64,000 bases of DNA, taken from a virus. The notes under the pieces were generated by a model. That model saw only the letters and a program-made list of their open reading frames with translations. It searched no databases and was not told where the DNA came from. The position numbers and the translations under genes are program-made. The stretch lies in the IMG/VR virus record IMGVR_UViG_3300025736_000010, positions 48,897 through 112,896 of that record. One strand, written 5' to 3'. This document shows positions 8,165 through 61,984 of the stretch, in pieces (the first letter of the stretch is position 1; the number at the start of each line of letters is the position of its first letter).

Positions 8165-8195
8165 AGGGCTTGGCGTAAAAACCAAGCCCTTTTTT
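8165..8195 (+). terminator. Rho-independent terminator
   Basis: AGGGCTTGG-loop-CCAAGCCCT followed by a T run. Confidence 0.85.
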
Positions 8196-8197
8196 AC

Positions 8198-8226
8198 TTG
8201 ACAAACTTTGCTAAATAGTGTATAAT
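8198..8226 (+). promoter_or_regulatory. Sigma70 promoter with extended -10
   Basis: TTGACAAAC...AATAGTG TATAAT, 17-nt spacer. Confidence 0.85.
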
Positions 8227-8252
8227 CATGCTATTGATGGGAGGCGGTTAAA

Positions 8253-8789
8253 ATAGAGTGGAGAGAAATTCCTGGTTATGAGGATAACTATTTGTGTTCC
8301 GATCATGGGGATATATTTAGTTTGTCTCACAACAAGATAAAAGGTAAAAGACTGTCTAACAACGGATACCTTAGAGTCAATCTATATAAGAAATGCAAGC
8401 AAGAAACAGCGCTTGTTCATTCTGTTGTGGCGAGAACGTTTATTGGTGAACGCCCAGAAGGAATGCAAATAAACCACAAAGATGGTGATAAAACCAACAA
8501 TCACGTATTAAATTTAGAGTACGTTACTAGTAAAGAAAACTCTAGCCACGCTATTCGCACAGGATTGTTTAATCCTGTAGGCGAAAATAATGCAAGCAGC
8601 AAACTGTTAGAATCTGATGTTGTGGAGATACAGTATATGATTGATAGCAAGAATTTTATGCAAAAACAGATTGCAGACAAATATCATGTTTCTTCCGCAA
8701 CAATATCGGCTATAGCGACTGGTAGAATCTGGGGCACAGTAACAAATATTGAGTACTGCCCCAAAAAGAGAATAAAGGAGAGTGCATAA
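8253..8789 (+). CDS. NUMOD4-HNH homing endonuclease with C-terminal HTH (probable ATA start)
   Basis: In-frame upstream EWREIPGYEDNY NUMOD4 motif; INHKDGDKTNNHVLNLEY; paralogs at 37927 and 53941. Confidence 0.85.
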   Translation: MEWREIPGYEDNYLCSDHGDIFSLSHNKIKGKRLSNNGYLRVNLYKKCKQETALVHSVVARTFIGERPEGMQINHKDGDKTNNHVLNLEYVTSKENSSHAIRTGLFNPVGENNASSKLLESDVVEIQYMIDSKNFMQKQIADKYHVSSATISAIATGRIWGTVTNIEYCPKKRIKESA

Positions 8790-13014: not shown

Positions 13015-14016
13015 ATGGCTAAACGTGTAACTGATGAAGAGAGGGTTAAGATTCTGAGTATGCGCGAACAAGGGATGACATATAAAGCGATTGGTTTAGA
13101 GATTGGAAGGGGGAGAACAACAGTTGCCTCTGTGTGCGATCCTAAATATAAGGCTTATGCAAAAGCATACGGACAGTCACCAGAGCGCAAGGAAAAACAA
13201 AAGGCACGAAGAGCAACGCCAGAATATAAAGCTTATGCTAAAGAGTACAACCAAAGGCCAGAGCAAAAGGCGTATATGAAAGCGTATCGGCACACCCCTC
13301 GTTATAAAGATGCGAGAAGTTTGTATATGAAGGAATATAAGGACTCTAAGGAGTTCAAGGAGTCTCGCAAGAAATATCGAGAATCGCCAAAAGGAAAGGC
13401 TACTATAAGAGCTTACGAACAATCTGCGAGCAGGAAGGCACATAGGTCAGCTTATGGAAAAGAATATTGGCAAAGACCGGAAGTTAAAGCAGCCAACATT
13501 GCATACAATCAATCTCCTGGGCGCATAGCTTATAGGCAATCGCAAAGACATAAAGATCTAAAGGCTGCCTACGGGAAAGAATATCGCCAAAGGCCAGAGG
13601 TCAAGGCAGCCAGAGAAGCTTATCAACAATCACCAGAATATAAAGCATTTATGAGCGACTATCAAAGGGGTCCTGGGCGGTTAGCGCATAACCTGCGCTC
13701 AAGGCTAACATCGGCAATTTATAGCGACCAAGCTGCTGGCGGCGCAATAGACGATCTTGGATGTACTATAGATGAACTAAGGGAATATCTTGAATTGCAA
13801 TTTAAGCCGGGGATGTCTTGGGACAACTGGGCTTTGGATGGCTGGCACATTGACCATATCCGCCCGCTAGCATCATTTGATCTTACAGACCGCGCTCAAT
13901 TTTTGGAGGCGTGCCACTACACAAACTTGCAGCCATTATGGGCAGAGGAGAATTGGAGCAAGGGCGACAGGTTGGATGTTGATGAGCATAAAATCACAGA
14001 CAACGGAGGTGATTAA
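13015..14016 (+). CDS. HNH-type homing endonuclease with N-terminal HTH and helical repeats
   Basis: YxQSPExK repeats; LGCTIDEL...GMSWDN...WHIDHIRPL...CHYTNLQPLW..EN. Confidence 0.8.
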   Translation: MAKRVTDEERVKILSMREQGMTYKAIGLEIGRGRTTVASVCDPKYKAYAKAYGQSPERKEKQKARRATPEYKAYAKEYNQRPEQKAYMKAYRHTPRYKDARSLYMKEYKDSKEFKESRKKYRESPKGKATIRAYEQSASRKAHRSAYGKEYWQRPEVKAANIAYNQSPGRIAYRQSQRHKDLKAAYGKEYRQRPEVKAAREAYQQSPEYKAFMSDYQRGPGRLAHNLRSRLTSAIYSDQAAGGAIDDLGCTIDELREYLELQFKPGMSWDNWALDGWHIDHIRPLASFDLTDRAQFLEACHYTNLQPLWAEENWSKGDRLDVDEHKITDNGGD

Positions 14017-37192: not shown

Positions 37193-37795
37193 ATGCGTAT
37201 AATTGACTGCGAACAGCGGACAGACGAGTGGTATAAGGCGCGTTTGGGAATCCCCAGCGCGTCCAATTACGGGAAAATCGTTGACGGGAGCGGTAAGCCG
37301 TCTAAGTCTCAGAAGGACTATCTTAATAGACTAGCTGCTGAGAGGATAACCGGTGTGCGCGAAGAGACACATACATCGGCTGCTATGCAGACAGGTATTG
37401 ATAGAGAAGATCTATCTCGCGGTGTGTACGCCATGACATATGAGGTCACGGTTGAGGAGGTTGGGTTCTGCCTTAGTGATTCAGGCAGATACGGCGCATC
37501 CCCAGATGGATTTGTGGGCGAGAATGGACTAGTCGAACTAAAGAATCCTTTGGCAAAAACCGCTGTTGGGTATCTTCGCAGTGGGAAACTTCCGTCTATC
37601 TATTTCCAACAAGTTGAAGGACAACTTCTCGTTACAAAGCGCGAGTGGTGCGATTTTGTGACGTACTATCCCGGTCTTCCGCTATTTGTTGTTCGTGTTG
37701 AACGAGACGAAGAGTTTTTGGCTCGTTTGGAAGATGAGCTTAATGTGTTCTGCGACAAACTAGATAAAGTTTGTAAGGAGTTAGGTGAGGAATGA
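37193..37795 (+). CDS. YqaJ/lambda-type exonuclease
   Basis: EQRTDEW...R.G..SAS; GASPDG; ELKNP. Confidence 0.9.
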   Translation: MRIIDCEQRTDEWYKARLGIPSASNYGKIVDGSGKPSKSQKDYLNRLAAERITGVREETHTSAAMQTGIDREDLSRGVYAMTYEVTVEEVGFCLSDSGRYGASPDGFVGENGLVELKNPLAKTAVGYLRSGKLPSIYFQQVEGQLLVTKREWCDFVTYYPGLPLFVVRVERDEEFLARLEDELNVFCDKLDKVCKELGEE

Positions 37796-37806
37796 ACTTT
37801 TCTCGC

Positions 37807-37835
37807 TTGACAAAACGTTAGAAATAGTGTATAAT
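37807..37835 (+). promoter_or_regulatory. Sigma70 promoter
   Basis: TTGACAAAAC...AATAGTG TATAAT. Confidence 0.85.
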
Positions 37836-37841
37836 ATAAAC

Positions 37842-37920
37842 GTTGGCGGCAAGGGCATCAGGCAGCATTGCCTATCCTACGGGTTGCCCGGTCGTCAACA
37901 AATAAACTTGCCGTAGGAGG
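37842..37920 (+). ncRNA. Structured pseudoknot leader RNA, copy 1
   Basis: Three stems plus loop pairing to the RBS; same topology as 53857-53933. Confidence 0.6.
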
Positions 37921-37926
37921 TCGAGA

Positions 37927-38484
37927 ATGAAAGAGAAGTACGATGAAGAAATTATTGGAGAACGATGGGAACCAGTTGTTGGCTATAAAGGATGGTACGA
38001 GGTTAGCGATATTGGAAGAGCGCGTAATGTAGCGGACAGAAAGCATACATTCGTTGGTAAGATTCTGAAGCAACGCATAATTAGCAGTGGCTATTGCGGC
38101 ATTAGTCTTTGTAGAAATGGCGATCAACATGATGCGATTGTCCACCGACTAGTTATGGCCGCATTCGTCGGCCAATGCCCAGAAGGCAAAGAGGTCAACC
38201 ATAAGGATGGCGATAAAACCAACAATAGATTGGACAACCTAGAGTATGTAACACAATCTGAGAATATGATTCACGCATTTGATACTGGACTACATTCTCT
38301 CGGTGGCGAGAAAAACAATATGAGTAAATTGACTGAGGAGAACGTGCATGAAATTAGGCGGCTTTTGCGTGCTGGGTTGACGCATAAATCTATTAGCGCT
38401 CTTTTCAATGTTTCTCGCTCTTGTATTGGCCTGATCGCAACAGGGGAAAGATGGGCCTATCTAAAAGAAGAAGGGGAGGAATAG
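37927..38484 (+). CDS. NUMOD4-HNH homing endonuclease with C-terminal HTH
   Basis: WEPVVGYKGWYEVSD.G; VNHKDGDKTNNRLDNLEY. Confidence 0.9.
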   Translation: MKEKYDEEIIGERWEPVVGYKGWYEVSDIGRARNVADRKHTFVGKILKQRIISSGYCGISLCRNGDQHDAIVHRLVMAAFVGQCPEGKEVNHKDGDKTNNRLDNLEYVTQSENMIHAFDTGLHSLGGEKNNMSKLTEENVHEIRRLLRAGLTHKSISALFNVSRSCIGLIATGERWAYLKEEGEE

Positions 38485-39746
38485 TGGTAATTACAAAATT
38501 ATTGCTACAAAATGTGTTAAAAATCAAAGCCGTGAATATAACTCCAATGGGGAATATTGTAAAAATCACTGGCAGGAACGCTCAAGGGAAATCGAGCATA
38601 CTAGACGGCATAGAAATTCTGCTAAGAGGGCCTTCTTCTTTCCCGGATAAGCCTATTAGGGAAGGAGAAAAACAGGGCGCTGGCCAGATTGATTTTGGAG
38701 ATTTTGTAATCACAAGAACAATCGATCCACACAAATTAACAGTTGTCTATAAAGGGTCTGACGAAAAGATCAAGAGGCCGCAAGAGTTCCTGGATAGTCT
38801 TCTCAATAAATACACCTGCGATCCGTTGAAATTAATGGGCTTGTCGCCTTCTGAACAAATGAACGAAGTTAAGAATATTTTAGGTATTGACTTCACCGAC
38901 TTAGACAAAGAATACGATTCTATCTATGAAACTCGCCGAGATCTAAATCGGGACGCGAAAGCCTTGAATTCTCTAACTAAAGGATATAGTGCCGACTCTC
39001 CAGTAGATCAAATAGACGATAGCGAACTTCTGGCAAAACATAGTAATGCGCGAGAAGTAAATACTGCGAATGCTAAACTAAGATTCGAGCTTGAAACAGA
39101 ACGTGATCGCGTTAAGTCGTTGAAGGAAGATGCGGCAAAGTTAGAAGATCAACTTCGTTCGATCAATGAAGAGATAGACAAGCGAACGGAGTCAGGTAAG
39201 GCATTGGCGGAAACAGTAGCTGGCCTTGTAGACGTTGACGACGCCAATCTGTTTGCAGAAATACAACGTATCCAAAAACACAATAGCGAGGCAAGCAAGA
39301 ACAAAGAGGTGGTAGGACTAGTCGTTGAGCTAAATGACAACGTAGCTGCGATAGAAAAGATAGAAGCCAGGATGGAAGAAATTAAGGAATACAAGATCAG
39401 CGTTATTAGGGACGCAAAGTTTTCTATTGAGGGCTTGACTATACAGGATAATGCGTTATACTATGCAGGCGTGCCGCTCAACCAAGCGAGTCAGGCCGAA
39501 AAATTGCGTGTGTGTATGGCGTTATCAATAGCAGGTAAGCCAGAAATAAAAGTCATCCTCATGCCGCAAGCTTCGCTGTTAGATGAAGACAATATGGAAT
39601 TAGTATCAAAAATGGCGGAAGAGTTGGACTTTCAGATATGGATGGAAATCGTTGGTGATGGTGATCCTCTTTCTTTCGTGATTGAGGACGGCGAGGTAAA
39701 ACATTCCCCTGACGGCGACGTTGTGGGACAAGAGAAGTTATTTTAG
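38484..39746 (+). CDS. SMC/SbcC-like ABC ATPase
   Basis: GRNAQGKSS Walker A, long coiled coil, ASQAE signature; GGAGG RBS before GTG. Confidence 0.8.
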   Translation: MVITKLLLQNVLKIKAVNITPMGNIVKITGRNAQGKSSILDGIEILLRGPSSFPDKPIREGEKQGAGQIDFGDFVITRTIDPHKLTVVYKGSDEKIKRPQEFLDSLLNKYTCDPLKLMGLSPSEQMNEVKNILGIDFTDLDKEYDSIYETRRDLNRDAKALNSLTKGYSADSPVDQIDDSELLAKHSNAREVNTANAKLRFELETERDRVKSLKEDAAKLEDQLRSINEEIDKRTESGKALAETVAGLVDVDDANLFAEIQRIQKHNSEASKNKEVVGLVVELNDNVAAIEKIEARMEEIKEYKISVIRDAKFSIEGLTIQDNALYYAGVPLNQASQAEKLRVCMALSIAGKPEIKVILMPQASLLDEDNMELVSKMAEELDFQIWMEIVGDGDPLSFVIEDGEVKHSPDGDVVGQEKLF

Positions 39747-50666: not shown

Positions 50667-51017
50667 ATGAAAATAGCACAAGAAACAGCTGAGTACATCT
50701 ACAACAGACAGATATCTGACTACCCGATGTACGTTGACGAACTTGAGTCGTTCATTGCGTTTAAGATTAACGGCGGTGAAACACCAAAACATATCAAGGT
50801 TAATCTTGACCTTATTCCAGTAAAAGAATGTTTGCCTACAAACAAAGAGGCAATGTGGTGTCTTGAGATTGTACGCATAAACACATGCGGAGAACGCGAA
50901 CGTGATTTCGCTGAATATGATGATGGCCGGTGGTTGGCTGTTGACGGGACAGGCGATATATACAAAAAAGTGACTCATTGGTCAACAATCCCCGGCTTGA
51001 CAAACGCCGAAGAGTAG
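50667..51017 (+). CDS. Hypothetical protein (VTHW motif)
   Basis: IPVKECLP...VTHW; AAGGAG RBS. Confidence 0.55.
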   Translation: MKIAQETAEYIYNRQISDYPMYVDELESFIAFKINGGETPKHIKVNLDLIPVKECLPTNKEAMWCLEIVRINTCGERERDFAEYDDGRWLAVDGTGDIYKKVTHWSTIPGLTNAEE

Positions 51018-51025
51018 TGTATAAT
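50997..51025 (+). promoter_or_regulatory. Sigma70 promoter of tmRNA
   Basis: TTGACAAAC...TAGTG TATAAT. Confidence 0.85.
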
Positions 51026-51053
51026 TAGTACATATAGGAGGCAAAAAATATAT

Positions 51054-51418
51054 GGGGGCGACTTTGGAATCGAGCGGTTACAGGAAGACATGATTGCAAG
51101 CGTAGCGCCAACTACTAAACTGGCAACAAAAACAAAGTTCAACATTAAAACACTCTTCGCTAATGCGAAGGATCGAGTCGTAAGCTTCGTCAGTGGACTC
51201 TTCTCGGTCAACGCCACACTGGCAAACGCAGTACCTGTCCCAGCTTAGAGCAAGGGACCTACAGAGGCTTTCCTGGTTGAGCCAATACTAATCGACCAAG
51301 TGGTGGAACGACCGAAGCTGGTCAACCCCAAGGCATCCATGCCTAACTGGATATGCTTGTAGACGTTGTGTAGAATGTAGATCGTGACTCGGTGTTCGAA
51401 TCACCGACGCCTCCACCA
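51054..51418 (+). ncRNA. ssrA: tmRNA
   Basis: GGGGGCG/CGCCTCC acceptor with G3:U70, GGAATCGA D-region, GACTCGGTG-TTCGAAT-CACCG T arm, ACCA end, internal tag frame; 365 nt. Confidence 0.92.
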
Positions 51419-52028: not shown

Positions 52029-53796
52029 ATGAAATTAGAAGCGGGAGACGTAGTAAAGGCAACATCTTTAATGGGAGAATGTTGGCAGCATAGTGAACGC
52101 GGAGAATGTCTGGGAGAAAACGTAACAGTAATCGGACCTAAAGACAATGGCTATGAGGTTAACGTATTCTTAGGCGGAGAACTAAAATCGTTCGTATTTG
52201 CACCAAGCGAATTATCGGAACTAGACTGATGAAAAAGTGGATTGCTGCATCAGGTGTCTCGAAAATGCTCAATTGCAACGTATATACTGTATATAAAGCC
52301 GCAAGTAATGGCAAATGGGAATATAAGATGGGAAAGCCTCCGAAGGGTGGGGGTAAAAGCCCGAAGTTGTACCTATCCTCAGATGCTATGTCGTGGAAGA
52401 AAATGCTCGATAGCAACAAGGCTGGTAACGGGACGAACAGTGCTTTTGGCGATATTCTAAAGTTGGTTAAGTGGGCGGATGCACTTTCTGCTTATCCGAG
52501 TGACGCAGAAATCGAAAAGCACACCACATTCACCTATAGAGTTCCTGATATTGTGAGCGTTATTGAGAATAGGGTTGCGAGAGGATTCGCTGAGTTAAAG
52601 ATGGTATAAGGGAGATAATATGAAATCTACAGCCGTTATTGGTCTATTGGTTGTTTTTGGCGGACTTGTCCTGTTGAGCGCTGTTCCCGTGTGGCTATTG
52701 TGGAATGGAGTGCTAGTAAATGTAGTCTCAGGGGTTTCAGAGGTTAGTTTCTGGCAGGCGTTGGGGATGACGTTCCTTTGTTCGATGTTGTTTAAGTCTT
52801 ACAATACGACGGCAAAATAAAAGGAGGCAACAATGGAAAAGACACTTAGGGTGATCGCGGAGTGCTTTGCTAATAGGATTGACAAGATTGACCAGAATAT
52901 TGTAGGGATACTAAGAGAACCTGCGCTATGGTTCTCTCCTAAAATCAGGCGAGATCAGAAACGCATAAAAGACTTGAGGTTTCGCAAAATGATACTATTA
53001 GACATTAGCATAGCGTTAACAAGTGCGTCGATTGAGCTTGGAAAAGAGAAATAATGGGCATTGAAAGCACTAGATATATCACAAGAGAAGATGCTATTGA
53101 TAGGATTAAAGGCATGTCTCAGTTATTCATAGAGCGCAATTATTTGGAAATAGAGGCGCATTCATTTGAACAAGGCATAGGAGGTGGGAGAATGCTGGAA
53201 TTCGTTGATAATTGGAATCCTGATGAGGTTTATGGATTTGAAAATTGGACGGATGAAATGCTTGGTAACTATATGGACAATCCGTTTTTCAGGTATGCGA
53301 TGTTTGAGAATTACTTGATTGAGGAGGAAAACAAATGACACAAAAAGAAATAAACGCAATGACAGATGAGGAGTTACGTGTCAAGGCTGATGAATTACTC
53401 CACCCTGGCAATAGAATCAACTTCTTTTGTGATAAATTGGCTAGATTCTATCCTGGCGACTACGAAGAATATGATTGGGTCCCAGATTATCCTAACGATA
53501 TAGCAGCAGCGCGGGGGTTGGTTGATCTTGTATTTGCCGACAACAACGCAGACCAGATGGAGTATCACGAGTTCTACTTGGATAATTCACATCTTATACA
53601 TGTTGGGGCAAAGCCATTTTTAGAACACAGTTTAGCGGAAAGATACATTCAGGCATTATGTGAGGTTGTTGATGTACGTCCACTTGGCTTGGCTTACTCC
53701 GATTTTGGGTCTGTGTCTTACGGCGATCTGTCTAAATTAATCTATGCGCATCCAAACACAATCACAAAAGCGTTCATACTTGCATCGACGGGTTGA
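52029..53796 (+). other. Run of six small hypothetical genes (52029, 52229, 52620, 52833, 53054, 53335)
   Basis: Head-to-tail ORFs with RBSs or overlaps; 52229 HTH-like, 52620 membrane protein. Confidence 0.55.
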
Positions 53797-53819
53797 TAAG
53801 CTGGAAGAAACACTAATAC

Positions 53820-53848
53820 TTGACAAATAGCATAAAATAGTGTATAAT
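53820..53848 (+). promoter_or_regulatory. Sigma70 promoter
   Basis: TTGACAAAT...AATAGTG TATAAT. Confidence 0.85.
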
Positions 53849-53856
53849 GATAGATG

Positions 53857-53933
53857 CAGGCGGCCTAAGTCGTGGGTCATATTGATCCATCTCATGGAAC
53901 GATGCGGGTCGCCTGACAAAATAACCATGAGGT
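53857..53933 (+). ncRNA. Structured pseudoknot leader RNA, copy 2
   Basis: Same topology as 37842-37920 with compensatory changes. Confidence 0.6.
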
Positions 53934-53940
53934 GTTAGGA

Positions 53941-54483
53941 ATGAAGGAGATGGAAAATTGGAAAGACGTAGTTGGCTATGAAGGATGGTATGAGATTAGT
54001 GATTGGGGGAATGTCAAGAGGGTAAAGAAATGGAAAGGCGCAGTTGTGGGGAGGGTTCTCAGGAATCAGACAGATAAGTATGGATACAGGAGTGTCTATC
54101 TCAATAGAGACGGGAGCCGCAGGTTTTTCAGAATCCATCGTCTAGTCGCGGCGGCGTTTATTGGTGTATGCCCTGACGGCAAGGAAGTTAATCATAAAGA
54201 TGGGCGTAAGGCGAATAACCATTTAGAGAATCTTGAATATGTAACATCGTCTGAAAACCAACGCCATTCGTATGCCATGGGATTAAGGTCTAATCGCGGG
54301 GAGAAGGCGCCAAACAGCAAGTTGAAAGAAGAAGATGTGCGTAAGATAATTCTGCGTATTGGGAAAGAAACGCATAAATCAATCGCTGCGGATTTTAACG
54401 TAGGGAGATCGACCATTGCTGCTATTGCGTGCGGTCAAAATTGGGCGTATCTAAAAGAGGAGGACGATGACGAACGAACTTAA
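53941..54483 (+). CDS. NUMOD4-HNH homing endonuclease with C-terminal HTH
   Basis: WKDVVGYEGWYEISDWG; VNHKDGRKANNHLENLEY. Confidence 0.9.
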   Translation: MKEMENWKDVVGYEGWYEISDWGNVKRVKKWKGAVVGRVLRNQTDKYGYRSVYLNRDGSRRFFRIHRLVAAAFIGVCPDGKEVNHKDGRKANNHLENLEYVTSSENQRHSYAMGLRSNRGEKAPNSKLKEEDVRKIILRIGKETHKSIAADFNVGRSTIAAIACGQNWAYLKEEDDDERT

Positions 54484-56071
54484 AATAACAGAAAGCGATA
54501 TCGCTAAGCTGAACAGTTTAGAATGGAGTAAGCGCAATAGGATGGTCAAGTCTAAGATTGAACTGAAGTATGTCCCGTTTTCAATAGACACACCGCCGTA
54601 TATATATCCCTTTCTAAAAGAAATCTACTATAGCCGCTCGATAGGCGGACCAAGACATCTTGTGATAATGAAGCCAAGGCAAATTGGCGCTACTGAACTT
54701 GCAATTAACTCGGCATTTTACGCTAACGACGTTTTTTCCGCAAATGTGATCTATTGCTTACCCGGGCAGACGGATCTGAGAAAATTCGCAGGCGCAAGAA
54801 TTAACGAAATAATAAGAAGCTCCCCTAGGATAAGGTCGAATTTTACGGCAATTGATAATTTGGAGCTAAAAGTAGGGCGAAATGCGTCTATCCATCTGAA
54901 AGGTATGCAGTCTGAGGCGGGGCTTGAAGAAACGCCCGCTGACTATATTATACGTGATGAAATAGACCAAATGCCACCTGCTAACGCGGCAATGATACTT
55001 GAGGCACTTGGGGGTTCGTTCCTGAAGTGGATTCTTGATTTGAGCCACCCGACATATCCTGGCAAAGGCATACATGAATCATATCGAGAGTCGAGTCAAG
55101 GCACTTGGATGTTTATCTGCCCTTACTGTGGCGCTAAACAAAATCTGAGCTGGGAGGGGAACGTAGATGTTGTGAACCACTGCTATAAATGCGCTCAGTG
55201 TTATAAGCGTCTTGAGAAGAAAGATTTTTGGACTGGTTTTTACGAGCATAAGATTCCAGATCATCGTGTTAGGGGCTTCCAGTTTAACCAGATAATGAGT
55301 CCTACCGTGGACCTTTCTGACCAAATTATTAAGTGGAACCTATCACAAGGAATTCCTTATAAGATGCGGATTTTTCACAATACTGTGCTTGGTCTTCCGT
55401 ACGCAGAGAATTCAAAAAAACTAACTGAAGAGGCTGTACGCGATCTTATGAAAGACCAGCCGCACATGGTATTTAAGGCGGCTGAATCTGTTATGGGTCT
55501 AGATGTTGGCAGCGGATTACATTTATGGGTGCAGTCCGGCGAAAATCTGTTGACCGTTGCGTTGTTAGATGATTGGGGAGAGCTAGATAAATATGTCGAT
55601 AGGTACAACCCAAAATGCGTCGTTATTGATGCTGGGCCGGAAGGTCACGCCGCCAAGACAATGGTTGAGGCGCTAAGAGAAAAGGGGATAGATGCCTGGA
55701 TGTGCATGAGGTCTGATGGGTTGGCTGGGCATAGAATTATTGACGACAATACAATGACGATAAAAGTAAATAAGACTGAACAATTTGATGAGTTTTACGC
55801 TCGCCTTTTAGGGATGAACTTGCCGTCTAATCTACCGCAGGAAGCAATTGACCAACTAGTCGCCCCAGTAAGGACGTACAGAACAGCGCCAGACGGCAGC
55901 AAGAAGGGCATATATGACAAAGGCATCTGCCACTATGCGGACAGCGCGTCATACGCAATGGAAGCCGCAAAACAAATGGAATCACGCTACATCATACCCA
56001 AAGACATCATAGTGCCACAGATAACCGGAAAAAGTAGATGGAAAGGTAAACTAACGGGGGATAATGGCTGA
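54467..56071 (+). CDS. Terminase large subunit (lambda GpA-like)
   Basis: MKPRQIGATE, IRDEID, CPYCG...CAQC, FHNTVLGLPY, GLDVG. Confidence 0.88.
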   Translation: MTNELKITESDIAKLNSLEWSKRNRMVKSKIELKYVPFSIDTPPYIYPFLKEIYYSRSIGGPRHLVIMKPRQIGATELAINSAFYANDVFSANVIYCLPGQTDLRKFAGARINEIIRSSPRIRSNFTAIDNLELKVGRNASIHLKGMQSEAGLEETPADYIIRDEIDQMPPANAAMILEALGGSFLKWILDLSHPTYPGKGIHESYRESSQGTWMFICPYCGAKQNLSWEGNVDVVNHCYKCAQCYKRLEKKDFWTGFYEHKIPDHRVRGFQFNQIMSPTVDLSDQIIKWNLSQGIPYKMRIFHNTVLGLPYAENSKKLTEEAVRDLMKDQPHMVFKAAESVMGLDVGSGLHLWVQSGENLLTVALLDDWGELDKYVDRYNPKCVVIDAGPEGHAAKTMVEALREKGIDAWMCMRSDGLAGHRIIDDNTMTIKVNKTEQFDEFYARLLGMNLPSNLPQEAIDQLVAPVRTYRTAPDGSKKGIYDKGICHYADSASYAMEAAKQMESRYIIPKDIIVPQITGKSRWKGKLTGDNG

Positions 56072-57458
56072 TATACGAGAATTGCCTAAAAACATAGAGG
56101 CAGAGCAGGTTGTATTGGGATCTGTTATGCTTGAGCCGGAATCAGTGTGTCGTATTGTCCAGGAGAAAAAGTTAGAGCCTGAGCATTTCTACGAAGCGCG
56201 ACATCGTGTTATATACGCCTCTATTAAAGAGCTATTAGATGCTGGTGATCCGCCGGATATTGTAATACTGTCAAATCACCTAGAAGACAAGAACGACATG
56301 GAGAAAGCTGGCGGTAGAATGTACCTTAACGAGTTATTGGATCGTACTTCTACGACCGCAAGTATAGAGCATTATATTGACATTGTGAAAACTAAGTCTG
56401 CTATGAGGCAGATAATCGAAGCTGGGGCAAAGATTGAAGAGGTCGGATATAAAGAAAACGTTGATATTGCTGAAGTGTTTTCTAAGGCGACACAAATAAT
56501 AGGCGACATTGATATGCCTGAAGATAAACCGCCTTACGTTATGTTAGGCGACGAAGTAGCTGAACAAATTAGTATTCTTGAGCAGATACACGCGCAAGGC
56601 GGCGGTGGGGTCGTTGGCGTTCCTAGTGGGTTCGCTGAATTAGATAAGATTACGTCTGGTTTTAGAGACTCTGATTTGATTATAATTGCAGCTCGCCCAG
56701 GCGTTGGAAAAAGCGCGATGACTACATCAATAGCTAGAAGGGCGGCGCTCGATGGCTATAAAGTTGGGTTCTTTTCACTTGAAATGTCGCGGGAACAAAT
56801 GCTACAAAGGTTACTGTGCGGTGAGGCTCGCGTTAATCTCCAGAAGATGCGCGGTGGGTATATGGGCATGGAGGATTGGCGGCGTCTAACTGATGTTGCT
56901 GGCAAGATTAGGTCTGCGCCGATATATGTAGATGACACTCCAGGAAATCCGCTATCGGATATTGTTTCAAGAGCGCGAAGAATGAAAGAGAACGAGGCGA
57001 TTGATATGCTGTTTATAGATTACTTGCAGTTAATCGAGATACCAGGATTCACTCGTAACCGCGAGAACGAAGTTGCTAAGACAGCTAGAACGCTGAAGAA
57101 GCTTGCCAGGGAGCTTGAGATACCTATTATCGCGCTGTCTCAGTTGAATAGAAACACAGAACAGCGAACAGTTAAGAATAAGAGACCAACGCTAGCTGAT
57201 CTGAGAGAATCCGGTGCCCTGGAACAAGATACGGATATGGTGATATTCATATATAGGGATGACTACTATAATACAGAAACCGAAGAGATTGATACTGTTG
57301 TTCCCGCCGAGCTTATCATTGCAAAGCAACGTAACGGACCACTGGGCAGGGTACACGTATCATTCCACAAATCATTTGTAGACTTTTACCCGAACGTTTA
57401 CGCCGACGAATATAAGGGATTTGGGTTTACGCCCGAACAGGATGGACAATATGAATGA
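56064..57458 (+). CDS. dnaB: Replicative DNA helicase
   Basis: NIEAEQ, AARPGVGKS, FSLEM, IDYLQL, LSQLNR, DLRESGALEQD, KQRNGP. Confidence 0.97.
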   Translation: MADIRELPKNIEAEQVVLGSVMLEPESVCRIVQEKKLEPEHFYEARHRVIYASIKELLDAGDPPDIVILSNHLEDKNDMEKAGGRMYLNELLDRTSTTASIEHYIDIVKTKSAMRQIIEAGAKIEEVGYKENVDIAEVFSKATQIIGDIDMPEDKPPYVMLGDEVAEQISILEQIHAQGGGGVVGVPSGFAELDKITSGFRDSDLIIIAARPGVGKSAMTTSIARRAALDGYKVGFFSLEMSREQMLQRLLCGEARVNLQKMRGGYMGMEDWRRLTDVAGKIRSAPIYVDDTPGNPLSDIVSRARRMKENEAIDMLFIDYLQLIEIPGFTRNRENEVAKTARTLKKLARELEIPIIALSQLNRNTEQRTVKNKRPTLADLRESGALEQDTDMVIFIYRDDYYNTETEEIDTVVPAELIIAKQRNGPLGRVHVSFHKSFVDFYPNVYADEYKGFGFTPEQDGQYE

Positions 57459-60450: not shown

Positions 60451-60523
60451 ACGCCCGTAGCTCAGCGGACAGAGCAGCGGTCTTCTAAACCGCTGGCCGA
60501 AGGTTCAAATCCTTCCGGGTGTA
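60451..60523 (+). tRNA. tRNA-Arg(UCU)
   Basis: Full cloverleaf; loop CTTCTAA; T loop TTCAAAT; CCA not encoded. Confidence 0.93.
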
Positions 60524-61908: not shown

Positions 61909-61984
61909 GCTCCCGTAGCTCAGTTGGAAGAGTATCGGTCTTATATGCCGGTTGCCGCAGGTTCGAGTCCTGCCGGGAGTACCA
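61909..61984 (+). tRNA. tRNA-Ile(UAU)
   Basis: GCTCCCG/CGGGAGT acceptor, loop CTTATAT, GTTCGAGTC, ACCA end. Confidence 0.88.

What the first reader, a model, noticed from the sequence alone, without database searches (positions are those of the whole stretch)
53857..53943. Second copy of the HNH-leader pseudoknot, with compensatory changes, heading the terminase-DnaB operon
Seen: P1 CAGGCGGCC/GGTCGCCTG, P2 GTCGT/ACGAT, P3 GGGTCA/TGATCC, junction ATCTCATGG (53889-97) pairing with CCATGAGGT (53925-33), which covers the GAGGTG RBS, via linker ACAAAATAA. The pseudoknot core changes from CTAC/GTAG to TCAT/ATGA while ATC...GG and CC are kept. The third paralog (8253) lacks the leader but appears to use a weak ATA start, possibly a different way of limiting a toxic nuclease. 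Inference: it may also affect the overlapping terL gene downstream.
Basis: partly seen in the sequence, partly recalled or inferred. Interest (0 to 1): 0.78.

Follow-up and report, generated by a model that had tools for sequence, protein, structure and literature searches.

The report
RBS-masking pseudoknot leader of HNH cassette
The 85 bases between a strong promoter and a selfish DNA-cutting-enzyme (HNH homing endonuclease) gene of this salt-lake phage fold into a conserved RNA pseudoknot that buries the gene's ribosome-binding site; it most likely keeps nuclease production low, and it is a new shape of a known kind of control.

Summary
All four helices lie at the stated coordinates. The fold begins 1-3 nt after the predicted start of a 12/12 consensus promoter and ends in an 8-9 bp helix over the GAGGTG Shine-Dalgarno of the NUMOD4/HNH_3 gene (ATG 53941).

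It is not chance. My descriptor scan scores the two window leaders 71 and 69. The rest of the window reaches 54 at most, and 768 kb of shuffled sequence reaches 64.

Metagenome relatives add two more distinct leaders (L085, L091) and a near-identical copy (L087). The pseudoknot keeps 8 pairs in all four distinct leaders. Four of its positions carry compensatory double changes, and G-U pairs fix the fold to the + strand.

Rfam has no match. Unpaired positions are not conserved, so nothing suggests a metabolite pocket.

Best reading (0.62): a cis-acting translational throttle that is part of a promoter-leader-HNH cassette. The nuclease is kept low while the same transcript feeds downstream genes that carry their own SD. 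RBS masking of homing-endonuclease mRNAs is known from T-even phages (I-TevI, mobE, segB). The H-type pseudoknot with its anti-SD in an internal loop is a new variant.

This scan has already noted similar uncatalogued nuclease leaders in many other phages.

The parts
53820..53848 (+). Promoter TTGACA-17-TATAAT (12/12 consensus). The predicted transcription start at about 53854-56 lies 1-3 nt before P1.
   Evidence: It is one of 11 perfect promoters of this type in the window, all on the + strand.
53857..53865 (+). P1 5' strand (CAGGCGGCC). It pairs with 53907-53915.
53869..53873 (+). P2 5' strand (GTCGT). It pairs with 53899-53903.
   Evidence: It covaries with copy 1 (GGGCA/TGCCC) and L091 (CCGT/ACGG).
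53874..53888 (+). P3 hairpin, GGGTCA[TAT]TGATCC.
53889..53897 (+). Anti-SD strand of the pseudoknot (ATCTCATGG), in the 3' side of the internal loop between P3 and P2.
   Evidence: Duplex energy with the tail is -12.1 kcal/mol.
53899..53903 (+). P2 3' strand (ACGAT).
53907..53915 (+). P1 3' strand (GGTCGCCTG).
53916..53924 (+). Linker ACAAAATAA: A/C-rich, without G. The linker is 9-11 nt in every member.
53925..53933 (+). 3' strand of the pseudoknot (CCATGAGGT). It overlaps the Shine-Dalgarno GAGGTG at 53929-34.
53941..54483 (+). NUMOD4 + HNH_3 homing-endonuclease gene (180 aa).
   Evidence: Pfam E 7e-11 and 8.5e-14. Paralogues lie at 37927 (55% identity) and 8253 (41%).
54457..54463 (+). SD (GAGGAGG) of the downstream gene, encoded by the last HNH codons (..LKEED..).
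54467..56071 (+). GpA-type terminase-large-subunit-like ATPase/nuclease gene. It overlaps the HNH end by 17 nt.
56064..57458 (+). DnaB-type helicase gene. It overlaps the previous gene by 8 nt.
37842..37929 (+). Paralogous leader (copy 1) with the same topology, before the HNH gene at 37927-38484. The promoter is at 37807-37835.

Best explanation
The stretch is the 5' untranslated leader of an mRNA that starts at a strong sigma-70-type promoter and encodes a free-standing NUMOD4/HNH homing endonuclease.

The leader folds as a stacked hairpin (P1-P2-P3). The 3' side of its large internal loop is an anti-Shine-Dalgarno strand. After a 9-nt A/C-rich linker, this strand pairs with the ribosome-binding site. 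The result is an H-type pseudoknot with P3 embedded in loop 1.

Because the hairpin is made first, the SD is captured as soon as it is transcribed. Few 30S subunits can bind, so little nuclease is made. The 5'-terminal stem P1 probably also protects the poorly translated mRNA from 5'-end-dependent decay.

Promoter, leader and HNH gene travel together as one cassette. The same transcript runs on into the downstream genes (terminase-like ATPase and DnaB here, an SbcC-like ATPase at copy 1). These genes have their own SD inside the last HNH codons. The leader thus uncouples nuclease translation from operon transcription.

Shown: the structure, its covariation, its position relative to promoter and SD, and its co-occurrence with the gene in three genomic contexts.

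Inferred: the repression itself, the stabilising role of P1, read-through into the downstream genes, and whether the mask is constitutive or can be lifted by processing in the linker, by a protein or by physical conditions.
For: Anatomy.

Thermodynamics:
- RNAfold recovers P1-P2-P3 with z -4.3 and -4.0.
- The pseudoknot duplexes are -11.0 to -13.2 kcal/mol. That equals or exceeds my computed SD pairing with the short anti-SD motif ACCUCCUUU, which is -6.6 to -11.5.

Specificity:
- Descriptor scores are 71 and 69, against 54 at most in the rest of the window and 64 at most in 768 kb of shuffles.
- Of 11 identical-class promoters in the window, the others I folded have -3 to -17 kcal/mol in their first 60 nt. 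Several of these (5489, 32828, 50997) carry a plain short SD leader. The two HNH leaders have -27 and -29.

Covariation:
- Leaders with the same architecture precede HNH relatives in metagenome contigs L085 (85% aa identity), L087 and L091.
- All 8 core pseudoknot pairs hold in the 4 distinct leaders. Positions 4, 5, 7 and 8 change on both sides.
- The count of structure pairs gives 93% of cells paired, against 35-62% when partners are slid, and 0 of 500 shuffles reach the covariation score.
- One to four G-U pairs per leader place the fold on the + strand RNA.

P1 begins 6-8 nt after the -10 box in all five leaders.

Cassette: the leader plus HNH sits in three different genomic contexts. These are YqaJ|SbcC-like, before the terminase-like gene, and beside a homologue of G000 at about 30.8 kb. 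The downstream genes have their own SDs and overlapping starts.

Precedent: RBS sequestration is established for I-TevI, I-TevII/III, mobE and segB (PMC3014915). SD masking in the primary transcript is established for type I toxin mRNAs (PMC11295053).
Against: - There is no experimental or expression evidence.
- Only four distinct sequences exist, all from closely related uncultured salt-lake phages. The statistical power is therefore small, and relatedness inflates the shuffle test.
- P2 is weak in L085 (3 bp). L091 has a competing hairpin in the MFE fold.
- A 9-nt linker has to span about 14 bp of P1+P2. By my estimate this is possible only if the linker is nearly extended.
- Keeping a strong SD and masking it, rather than weakening it as paralogue 3 seems to do with an ATA start, hints at a conditional switch that this explanation does not specify.
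- HNH relatives at 43-51% identity, and 80 more distant ones, have no such leader.
Confidence: 0.62

Rival explanations
1. It is a conditional switch rather than a fixed throttle. The pseudoknot would be stabilised or opened by a trans factor. Candidates are the HNH protein itself (autoregulation through its C-terminal HTH), another phage or host protein, a small molecule or ion, or temperature. Alternatively, cleavage in the single-stranded A-rich linker could separate the anti-SD from the SD and activate the mRNA.
For: - A strong SD with standard spacing is kept and masked in every member. That is typical of regulated leaders.
- The topology equals that of translational H-type pseudoknot riboswitches (from my knowledge of preQ1-II, SAM-II and NAD+-II).
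- Type I toxin mRNAs are activated by processing or by a slow conformational switch (PMC11295053).
- L091 and L085 can form an alternative small hairpin that competes with the pseudoknot.
Against: - No unpaired nucleotide outside the SD is conserved among the four leaders. J12, J21, the P3 loop and the linker all vary, so there is no sign of a ligand pocket.
- No Rfam riboswitch, ribozyme or protein-binding leader matches at E <= 10.
- The association is with a selfish nuclease gene, not with a metabolic pathway.
- A similar architecture precedes a non-HNH gene in the same phage. This speaks against HNH-specific autoregulation.
Confidence: 0.22
2. It is mainly an mRNA processing or stability element. 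It would be a roughly 20-bp irregular hairpin acting as an RNase III-type site or a 5'-terminal stabiliser, as in phage T7 early mRNAs. On this reading the SD complementarity is secondary.
For: - P1 starts at the predicted +1 in all members.
- P1+P2+P3 add up to about 20 bp with internal loops. From my knowledge, this resembles T7 RNase III sites.
Against: - It does not explain why the internal-loop strand and the SD region covary at four positions.
- It does not explain why the linker length is kept at 9-11 nt.
Confidence: 0.1
3. It is a DNA-level element (an operator, or a recombination or homing site made of inverted repeats), or a fold of an antisense RNA from the opposite strand.
For: - All helices are inverted repeats at the DNA level.
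Against: - Sequence varies while pairing is kept.
- One to four G-U pairs per leader would be A-C mismatches on the other strand.
- The covariance model scores 103 bits on the + strand and 13 bits on the - strand.
- None of the window's perfect promoters is on the - strand.
Confidence: 0.03

Closest known systems
RBS-sequestering RNA structures of T-even phage homing-endonuclease genes (I-TevI, I-TevII, I-TevIII, Aeh1 mobE, T4 segB)
   Same: The SD or start codon of a selfish endonuclease gene is buried in an intramolecular helix that lowers 30S binding (PMC3014915, section 29). Free-standing genes are included.
   Different: Those structures are simple hairpins. Their 5' arm holds a late promoter, so late transcripts escape repression. 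Here the mask is an H-type pseudoknot on top of a three-helix hairpin. The whole fold lies downstream of the gene's own promoter. No internal promoter-like site was found. There is no sequence relationship.
Translational H-type pseudoknot riboswitches (preQ1-II, SAM-II/SAM-V, NAD+-II pnuC motif)
   Same: A hairpin element pairs with a 3' tail that contains the SD, and a purine-rich loop crosses a helix groove. In NAD+-II the tail also pairs with an internal loop (from my knowledge).
   Different: No Rfam model matches. There are no conserved pocket nucleotides. The embedded hairpin lies in loop 1, not loop 3. The gene context is a nuclease, not metabolism.
5' UTR masking of type I toxin mRNAs (tisB, dinQ, hok, timP)
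   Same: Co-transcriptional folding hides the SD of a potentially harmful protein, so that transcription and translation are uncoupled (PMC11295053).
   Different: Those systems include an antisense antitoxin RNA and an activation step (processing or a slow switch). Neither was found here.
Autoregulatory mRNA pseudoknots (E. coli rpsO/S15, T4 gene 32)
   Same: A 5'-leader pseudoknot at or near the ribosome-binding site controls initiation (rpsO is mentioned in PMC11295053; T4 gene 32 is from my knowledge).
   Different: Those are bound by the encoded protein. Binding by the HNH protein is untested here.
Uncatalogued homing-endonuclease leader RNAs noted earlier by this scan in other phages (three-way junction or kissing-loop types)
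   Same: A leader of about 90-110 nt lies between a promoter and a mobile nuclease gene. A covarying pairing involves the RBS. The leader travels with the gene as a cassette (AI notes, not checked here).
   Different: Those leaders are described as three-armed folds in which a hairpin loop pairs with the RBS or with a second loop. Here the anti-SD lies in an internal loop of a single stacked hairpin. No look-alike stretch was found by sequence.

Membership tests
Any Rfam 15 family (riboswitches, ribozymes, protein-binding leaders, int-alpA, pnuC, preQ1-II and others) | A match to the family covariance model. | tested here: not met
   There is no match at gathering score in the window apart from 2 tRNAs and a tmRNA. 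There is no match at E <= 10 in 53780-54000. Only two chance snoRNA hits (E 1.6 and 4.1) appear in 37780-38000.
RBS-sequestering structures of homing-endonuclease mRNAs (a functional class, T-even type) | The SD and/or start codon of the endonuclease gene lies in an intramolecular helix. | tested here: met
   The pseudoknot 53889-97 / 53925-33 covers GAGGT of the SD. It is kept through compensatory changes in 4 distinct leaders.
RBS-sequestering structures of homing-endonuclease mRNAs (a functional class, T-even type) | A late promoter lies inside the 5' arm, so that late transcripts lack the masking strand. | tested here: inconclusive
   No sigma-70-like site lies between 53857 and 53943 on the + strand. 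The late-promoter consensus of this phage is unknown.
RBS-sequestering structures of homing-endonuclease mRNAs (a functional class, T-even type) | The structure measurably lowers translation. | not testable with these tools
   This needs reporter fusions or toeprinting.
H-type pseudoknot translational riboswitch | An H-type topology with the SD in the second stem. | tested here: met
   The order is P1/P2 5' strand, P3, anti-SD, P2/P1 3' strand, linker, SD strand.
H-type pseudoknot translational riboswitch | Conserved unpaired nucleotides that form a ligand pocket. | tested here: not met
   J12 is TAA/TGAT/AA/AAC. J21 is GCG/TGAT/G/CGC. The P3 loop is TAT/ATTTA/GCAT/CATTGC. The linkers differ. 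Only 4 sequences are available.
Kissing-loop or three-way-junction nuclease leaders noted earlier by this scan | A three-armed fold with a hairpin loop that pairs with the RBS region. | tested here: inconclusive
   The consensus fold is a single stacked hairpin with the anti-SD in an internal loop. The MFE folds of L085 and L091 do place part of the anti-SD in a small extra hairpin.

The most novel reading that the evidence does not exclude
The leader is one architectural branch of a large, uncatalogued superfamily of portable 'nuclease-lock' RNAs that travel with homing-endonuclease genes across unrelated phage groups. On this reading the lock is conditional. It would be opened by a defined signal, so that the nuclease is made only when homing can succeed. 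Candidate signals are cleavage in the A-rich linker, the nuclease itself, or a stage-specific phage factor.
Probability: 0.2. Interest if true: 0.75.

Novelty: new variant of a known kind. Interest (0 to 1): 0.5.

Why it matters
Homing endonucleases must be expressed enough to spread but not enough to harm their phage. How free-standing ones are restrained is known in detail only for a few T-even genes.

This leader shows a different, pseudoknot-based solution. It is inherited and moved together with its promoter and gene. It keeps its pairing through many compensatory changes. It appears to let a strong promoter serve the neighbouring essential genes while the nuclease stays low.

Together with the similar leaders this scan has noted in other phage groups, it suggests that RBS-locking leader RNAs are a general but uncatalogued part of mobile nuclease cassettes. 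A compact, sequence-programmable SD lock of about 85 nt is also a simple object for reporter and structure-probing experiments.

Tried and rejected
The DNA of the many closer protein relatives found (P0003-P0060, 47-64% identity) could not be fetched. This is the main limit on the covariation evidence.
- Single-protein scans of IMG/VR for copy 2 and copy 1 added nothing close.
- The genome-contig scan gave only four distant hits.
- A scan for the phage promoter word AAATAGTGTATAAT in IMG/VR returned mostly unrelated single matches.
- A scan with the terminase-like protein found no relative, so an empty site could not be compared.
- A scan with the 385-aa protein behind the third leader-like structure found relatives of its C-terminal half only. 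Conservation of that structure could not be tested.
- The covariance model R1, built from copy 2 and L085, finds L091 at E 2.5e-5. It finds copy 1 only at E 0.05-0.35 and with P2 out of register. I therefore parsed the helices by coordinates. MAFFT alignment A3 is structure-consistent only for the pseudoknot and the outer part of P3, and only those pairs were given to the count of structure pairs.
- Sequencing runs: no RNA holder is listed. Contigs of runs X12, X13 and X15 are 99% or more identical where they cover the stretch. X17 holds many short divergent contigs over the promoter, leader and first HNH codons. They cannot be phased, so no conclusion on pairing was drawn.
- Considered and rejected, each for the reason given:
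  - Intrinsic terminator: the hairpin is followed by an A-run, not a U-run.
  - Leader peptide: no conserved ORF.
  - Known small ribozymes: no Rfam match.
  - A fold on the minus strand: the G-U pairs exclude it.

Full report
**What is there**

The window is the right-hand 64 kb of a 112,896-base IMG/VR virus record, about 78% complete. Salt-lake metagenome runs hold it. Pieces 99% or more identical to it were laid from three runs.

At 53820-53848 lies a perfect TTGACA-17-TATAAT promoter. The usual start, about 7 nt after the -10 box, falls at 53854-56. From 53857 the sequence reads as four helices:
- P1, 53857-65 with 53907-15.
- P2, 53869-73 with 53899-903.
- P3, 53874-79 with 53883-88.
- A pseudoknot, 53889-97 with 53925-33. 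It is reached through the linker ACAAAATAA (53916-24).

The pseudoknot covers GAGGT of the Shine-Dalgarno GAGGTG (53929-34). ATG follows at 53941.

The gene is a 180-aa NUMOD4 + HNH_3 endonuclease. Two paralogues lie in the same genome, at 37927 (55% identity) and about 8253 (41%).

**Is it more than chance?**

- RNAfold, which cannot see the pseudoknot, returns exactly P1-P2-P3 for copy 2 and copy 1. The z-scores are -4.3 and -4.0, and none of 200 shuffles folds as well.
- I wrote a descriptor for the whole architecture: P1 >= 6, P2 >= 4 and P3 >= 4 pairs, plus a pairing of >= 6 between the 3' internal loop and the tail. Pairs are scored GC 3, AU 2, GU 1.
  - On both strands of the window the two HNH leaders score 71 and 69, and the next best hit scores 54.
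  - Twelve block-shuffles of the window (768 kb) never exceed 64.
- Both hits lie exactly between a 12/12 promoter and the start codon of paralogous genes.
- I folded the first 60 nt behind all 11 perfect promoters of this class, all on the + strand. The other nine give -3 to -17 kcal/mol, and several carry a plain short SD leader. The two HNH leaders give -27 and -29.

**Relatives and covariation**

A protein search found many HNH relatives at 47-84% identity in metagenomes. The single metagenome scan still returned three useful contigs:
- L085: 85% identical HNH, same position before the terminase-like gene, leader at 1390-1476.
- L087: the copy-1 locus of a relative, leader at 37-124. It differs from copy 1 only at a few positions of the linker.
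- L091: 48% identical HNH in a different genomic context, leader at 621-707.

All have a -10 box 6-8 nt before P1 and the same order of helices.

The pseudoknot aligns without gaps. Its eight core pairs hold in all four distinct leaders. At four positions both sides change: T-A/G-C/C-G, C-G/T-A, T-A/C-G and G-C/A-T. The last alternation does not follow the grouping of the sequences, so it arose more than once.

The count of structure pairs was run on the MAFFT alignment for the pseudoknot and the outer part of P3. It gives 93% of cells paired, against 35-62% when partners are slid by 1-3 columns. No shuffle of 500 reaches the observed covariation score. With five related rows this shuffle count is not a probability.

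Between copy 1 and copy 2, none of 26 aligned pairs is broken and about 12 are changed on both sides. The register of P1-P3 depends on how the helices are anchored.

Each leader has one to four G-U pairs. The covariance model scores 103 bits on the + strand and 13 on the - strand. The fold therefore belongs to the + strand RNA.

Two weak points remain. P2 is only 3 bp in L085. L091 has a competing hairpin in its MFE fold.

**Context**

HNH relatives at 43-51% identity (L088, L089/90, L092-L096), and 80 more distant ones in IMG/VR, show no such leader. The element is so far confined to one HNH subgroup in a few related salt-lake phages.

Within that group the leader plus gene occupies three different contexts:
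- Between a YqaJ-type exonuclease and an SbcC-like ATPase (copy 1, L087).
- Before the GpA-type terminase-like gene (copy 2, L085).
- Beside a homologue of G000 at about 30.8 kb (L091).

Promoter, leader and nuclease gene therefore behave as one cassette.

In both window copies the last HNH codons (..YLKEE..) encode the SD of the next gene, and the reading frames overlap. GAGGAGG at 54457-63 precedes ATG 54467. GGGGAGG at 38473-79 precedes GTG 38484, in a TAGTG stop-start overlap.

No convincing terminator separates HNH, the terminase-like gene and DnaB. The next gene does not need HNH translation to start.

**How it most likely works**

In topology this is an H-type pseudoknot. Stem A is P1+P2 and stem B is anti-SD with SD. 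P3 sits in loop 1, loop 2 is 0-2 nt, and the linker of 9-11 nt is loop 3.

The hairpin is complete before the SD is transcribed, so the SD can be captured at once. The pseudoknot duplex is -11 to -13 kcal/mol. That equals or exceeds my computed pairing of the SD with the short anti-SD motif ACCUCCUUU.

I therefore read the leader as a cis-acting brake on initiation of the nuclease gene. P1 at the very 5' end probably also stabilises the weakly translated mRNA. That second point rests on established knowledge of 5'-terminal stem-loops and is not tested here.

Both an SD (GAGG or GGAGG) at 6-8 nt from ATG and the mask are kept in every member. Paralogue 3, by contrast, has a short plain leader and seems to rely on an ATA start. 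This leaves room for a conditional release. Cleavage in the single-stranded A-rich linker, a protein, or physical conditions could lift the mask. I give that rival 0.22.

Nothing points to a metabolite. The unpaired positions vary freely, and no Rfam riboswitch or ribozyme model matches even at E <= 10.

**Comparison with what is known**

Masking of the ribosome-binding site is established for the T-even homing-endonuclease genes I-TevI, I-TevII and I-TevIII, for Aeh1 mobE and, by implication, for T4 segB (PMC3014915). Those are plain hairpins, relieved on late transcripts by an embedded late promoter.

Type I toxin mRNAs also hide their SD by co-transcriptional folding (PMC11295053).

The present leader works like these. 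It differs in fold (a pseudoknot on a three-helix hairpin), in lying wholly behind its own promoter, and in sequence. I class it as a new variant of a known kind.

This scan has already noted covarying RBS-pairing leaders before homing-endonuclease genes in many other uncultured phages. They are described as three-armed or kissing-loop folds. Those are unchecked AI notes. I could not compare sequences, and a look-up by sequence found nothing. They are a lead that such leaders are widespread, not support for this one.

**Limits**

There are only four distinct sequences from close relatives. There are no RNA data. The pseudoknot cannot be modelled by the folding tools. The steric fit of a 9-nt linker over about 14 bp is only my estimate. 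Function is inferred throughout.

Noticed in passing
Outside the window: G000:C1:20164-20262 (= L084 1165-1262): A third structure of the same architecture, with the highest descriptor score in the genome (74). P1 is 12 bp and runs straight into a 5-bp P2. P3 is TGGC[TAAC]GCCA. The internal-loop strand CCTCCGTGGT is complementary to ATCACGGAGG, which holds the SD of a 385-aa HTH_36 protein that is not an HNH. The hairpin z-score is -6.9. Here the linker is only AAAA and P1 starts about 100 nt after the promoter. Full P1 and the pseudoknot therefore look sterically exclusive, which may mean a different, switch-like logic. No relatives with the N-terminal half were found, so there is no test of covariation.
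   Followed up: partly
window 8198-8789: The third HNH paralogue has the same perfect promoter (8198-8226) but only a short plain leader. There is no ATG, GTG or TTG between the in-frame TGA (8235-37) and Trp 8259. ATA at 8253 lies 8 nt after GGAGG. A four-codon mini-ORF, ATG GGA GGC GGT TAA (8237-51), overlaps the SD in another frame. A terminator-like hairpin with a T-run (about 8168-8197) precedes the promoter.
   Followed up: partly
window 38473-38486 and 54457-54469: The conserved C-terminal ..YLKEE.. codons of both HNH genes double as the Shine-Dalgarno of the next gene, and the frames overlap (TAGTG at copy 1; ATG 17 nt before the HNH stop at copy 2). The inserted nuclease gene thus supplies the start signals of its neighbour.
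   Followed up: partly
window 50997-51418: Rfam calls a tmRNA at 51054-51418 (57 bits, gathering score 47). ARAGORN does not. It lies behind a perfect promoter, and an SD-ATG (AGGAGGCAAAAAATATATG) runs into its first bases. The window also holds tRNA-Arg(TCT) at 60451 and tRNA-Ile(TAT) at 61909.
   Followed up: no
window, + strand: 5489, 8198, 11571, 12584, 12706, 29851, 32828, 37807, 48462, 50997, 53820: There are eleven perfect TTGACA-17-TATAAT promoters, all on the + strand and none on the - strand. Three of them head the three HNH paralogues.
   Followed up: partly
L085 441-1145 versus window 53335-53796 and 13015-13965: In the related phage contig, the 153-aa ORF upstream of the copy-2 cassette is replaced by a relative of the window's gene at 13015-13965. 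The flanks stay syntenic. This is a local gene swap next to the cassette.
   Followed up: no
window 53819-54022, run X17: In one 'marine metagenome' run, the summed contig depth over the promoter, the leader and the first HNH codons is 40-90. Over the rest of the gene it is 1-3. Many short variants are up to 20% divergent. This suggests a diverse population of cassettes that share this 5' part, but the contigs are too short to phase.
   Followed up: partly
L276 1410-1490: A distant HNH relative (34% identity) in another IMG/VR contig has a 10-bp complement (TCATCTCTGA / TCGGAGGTGA) between an upstream loop and its SD. The descriptor score is 51, which lies within background.
   Followed up: no
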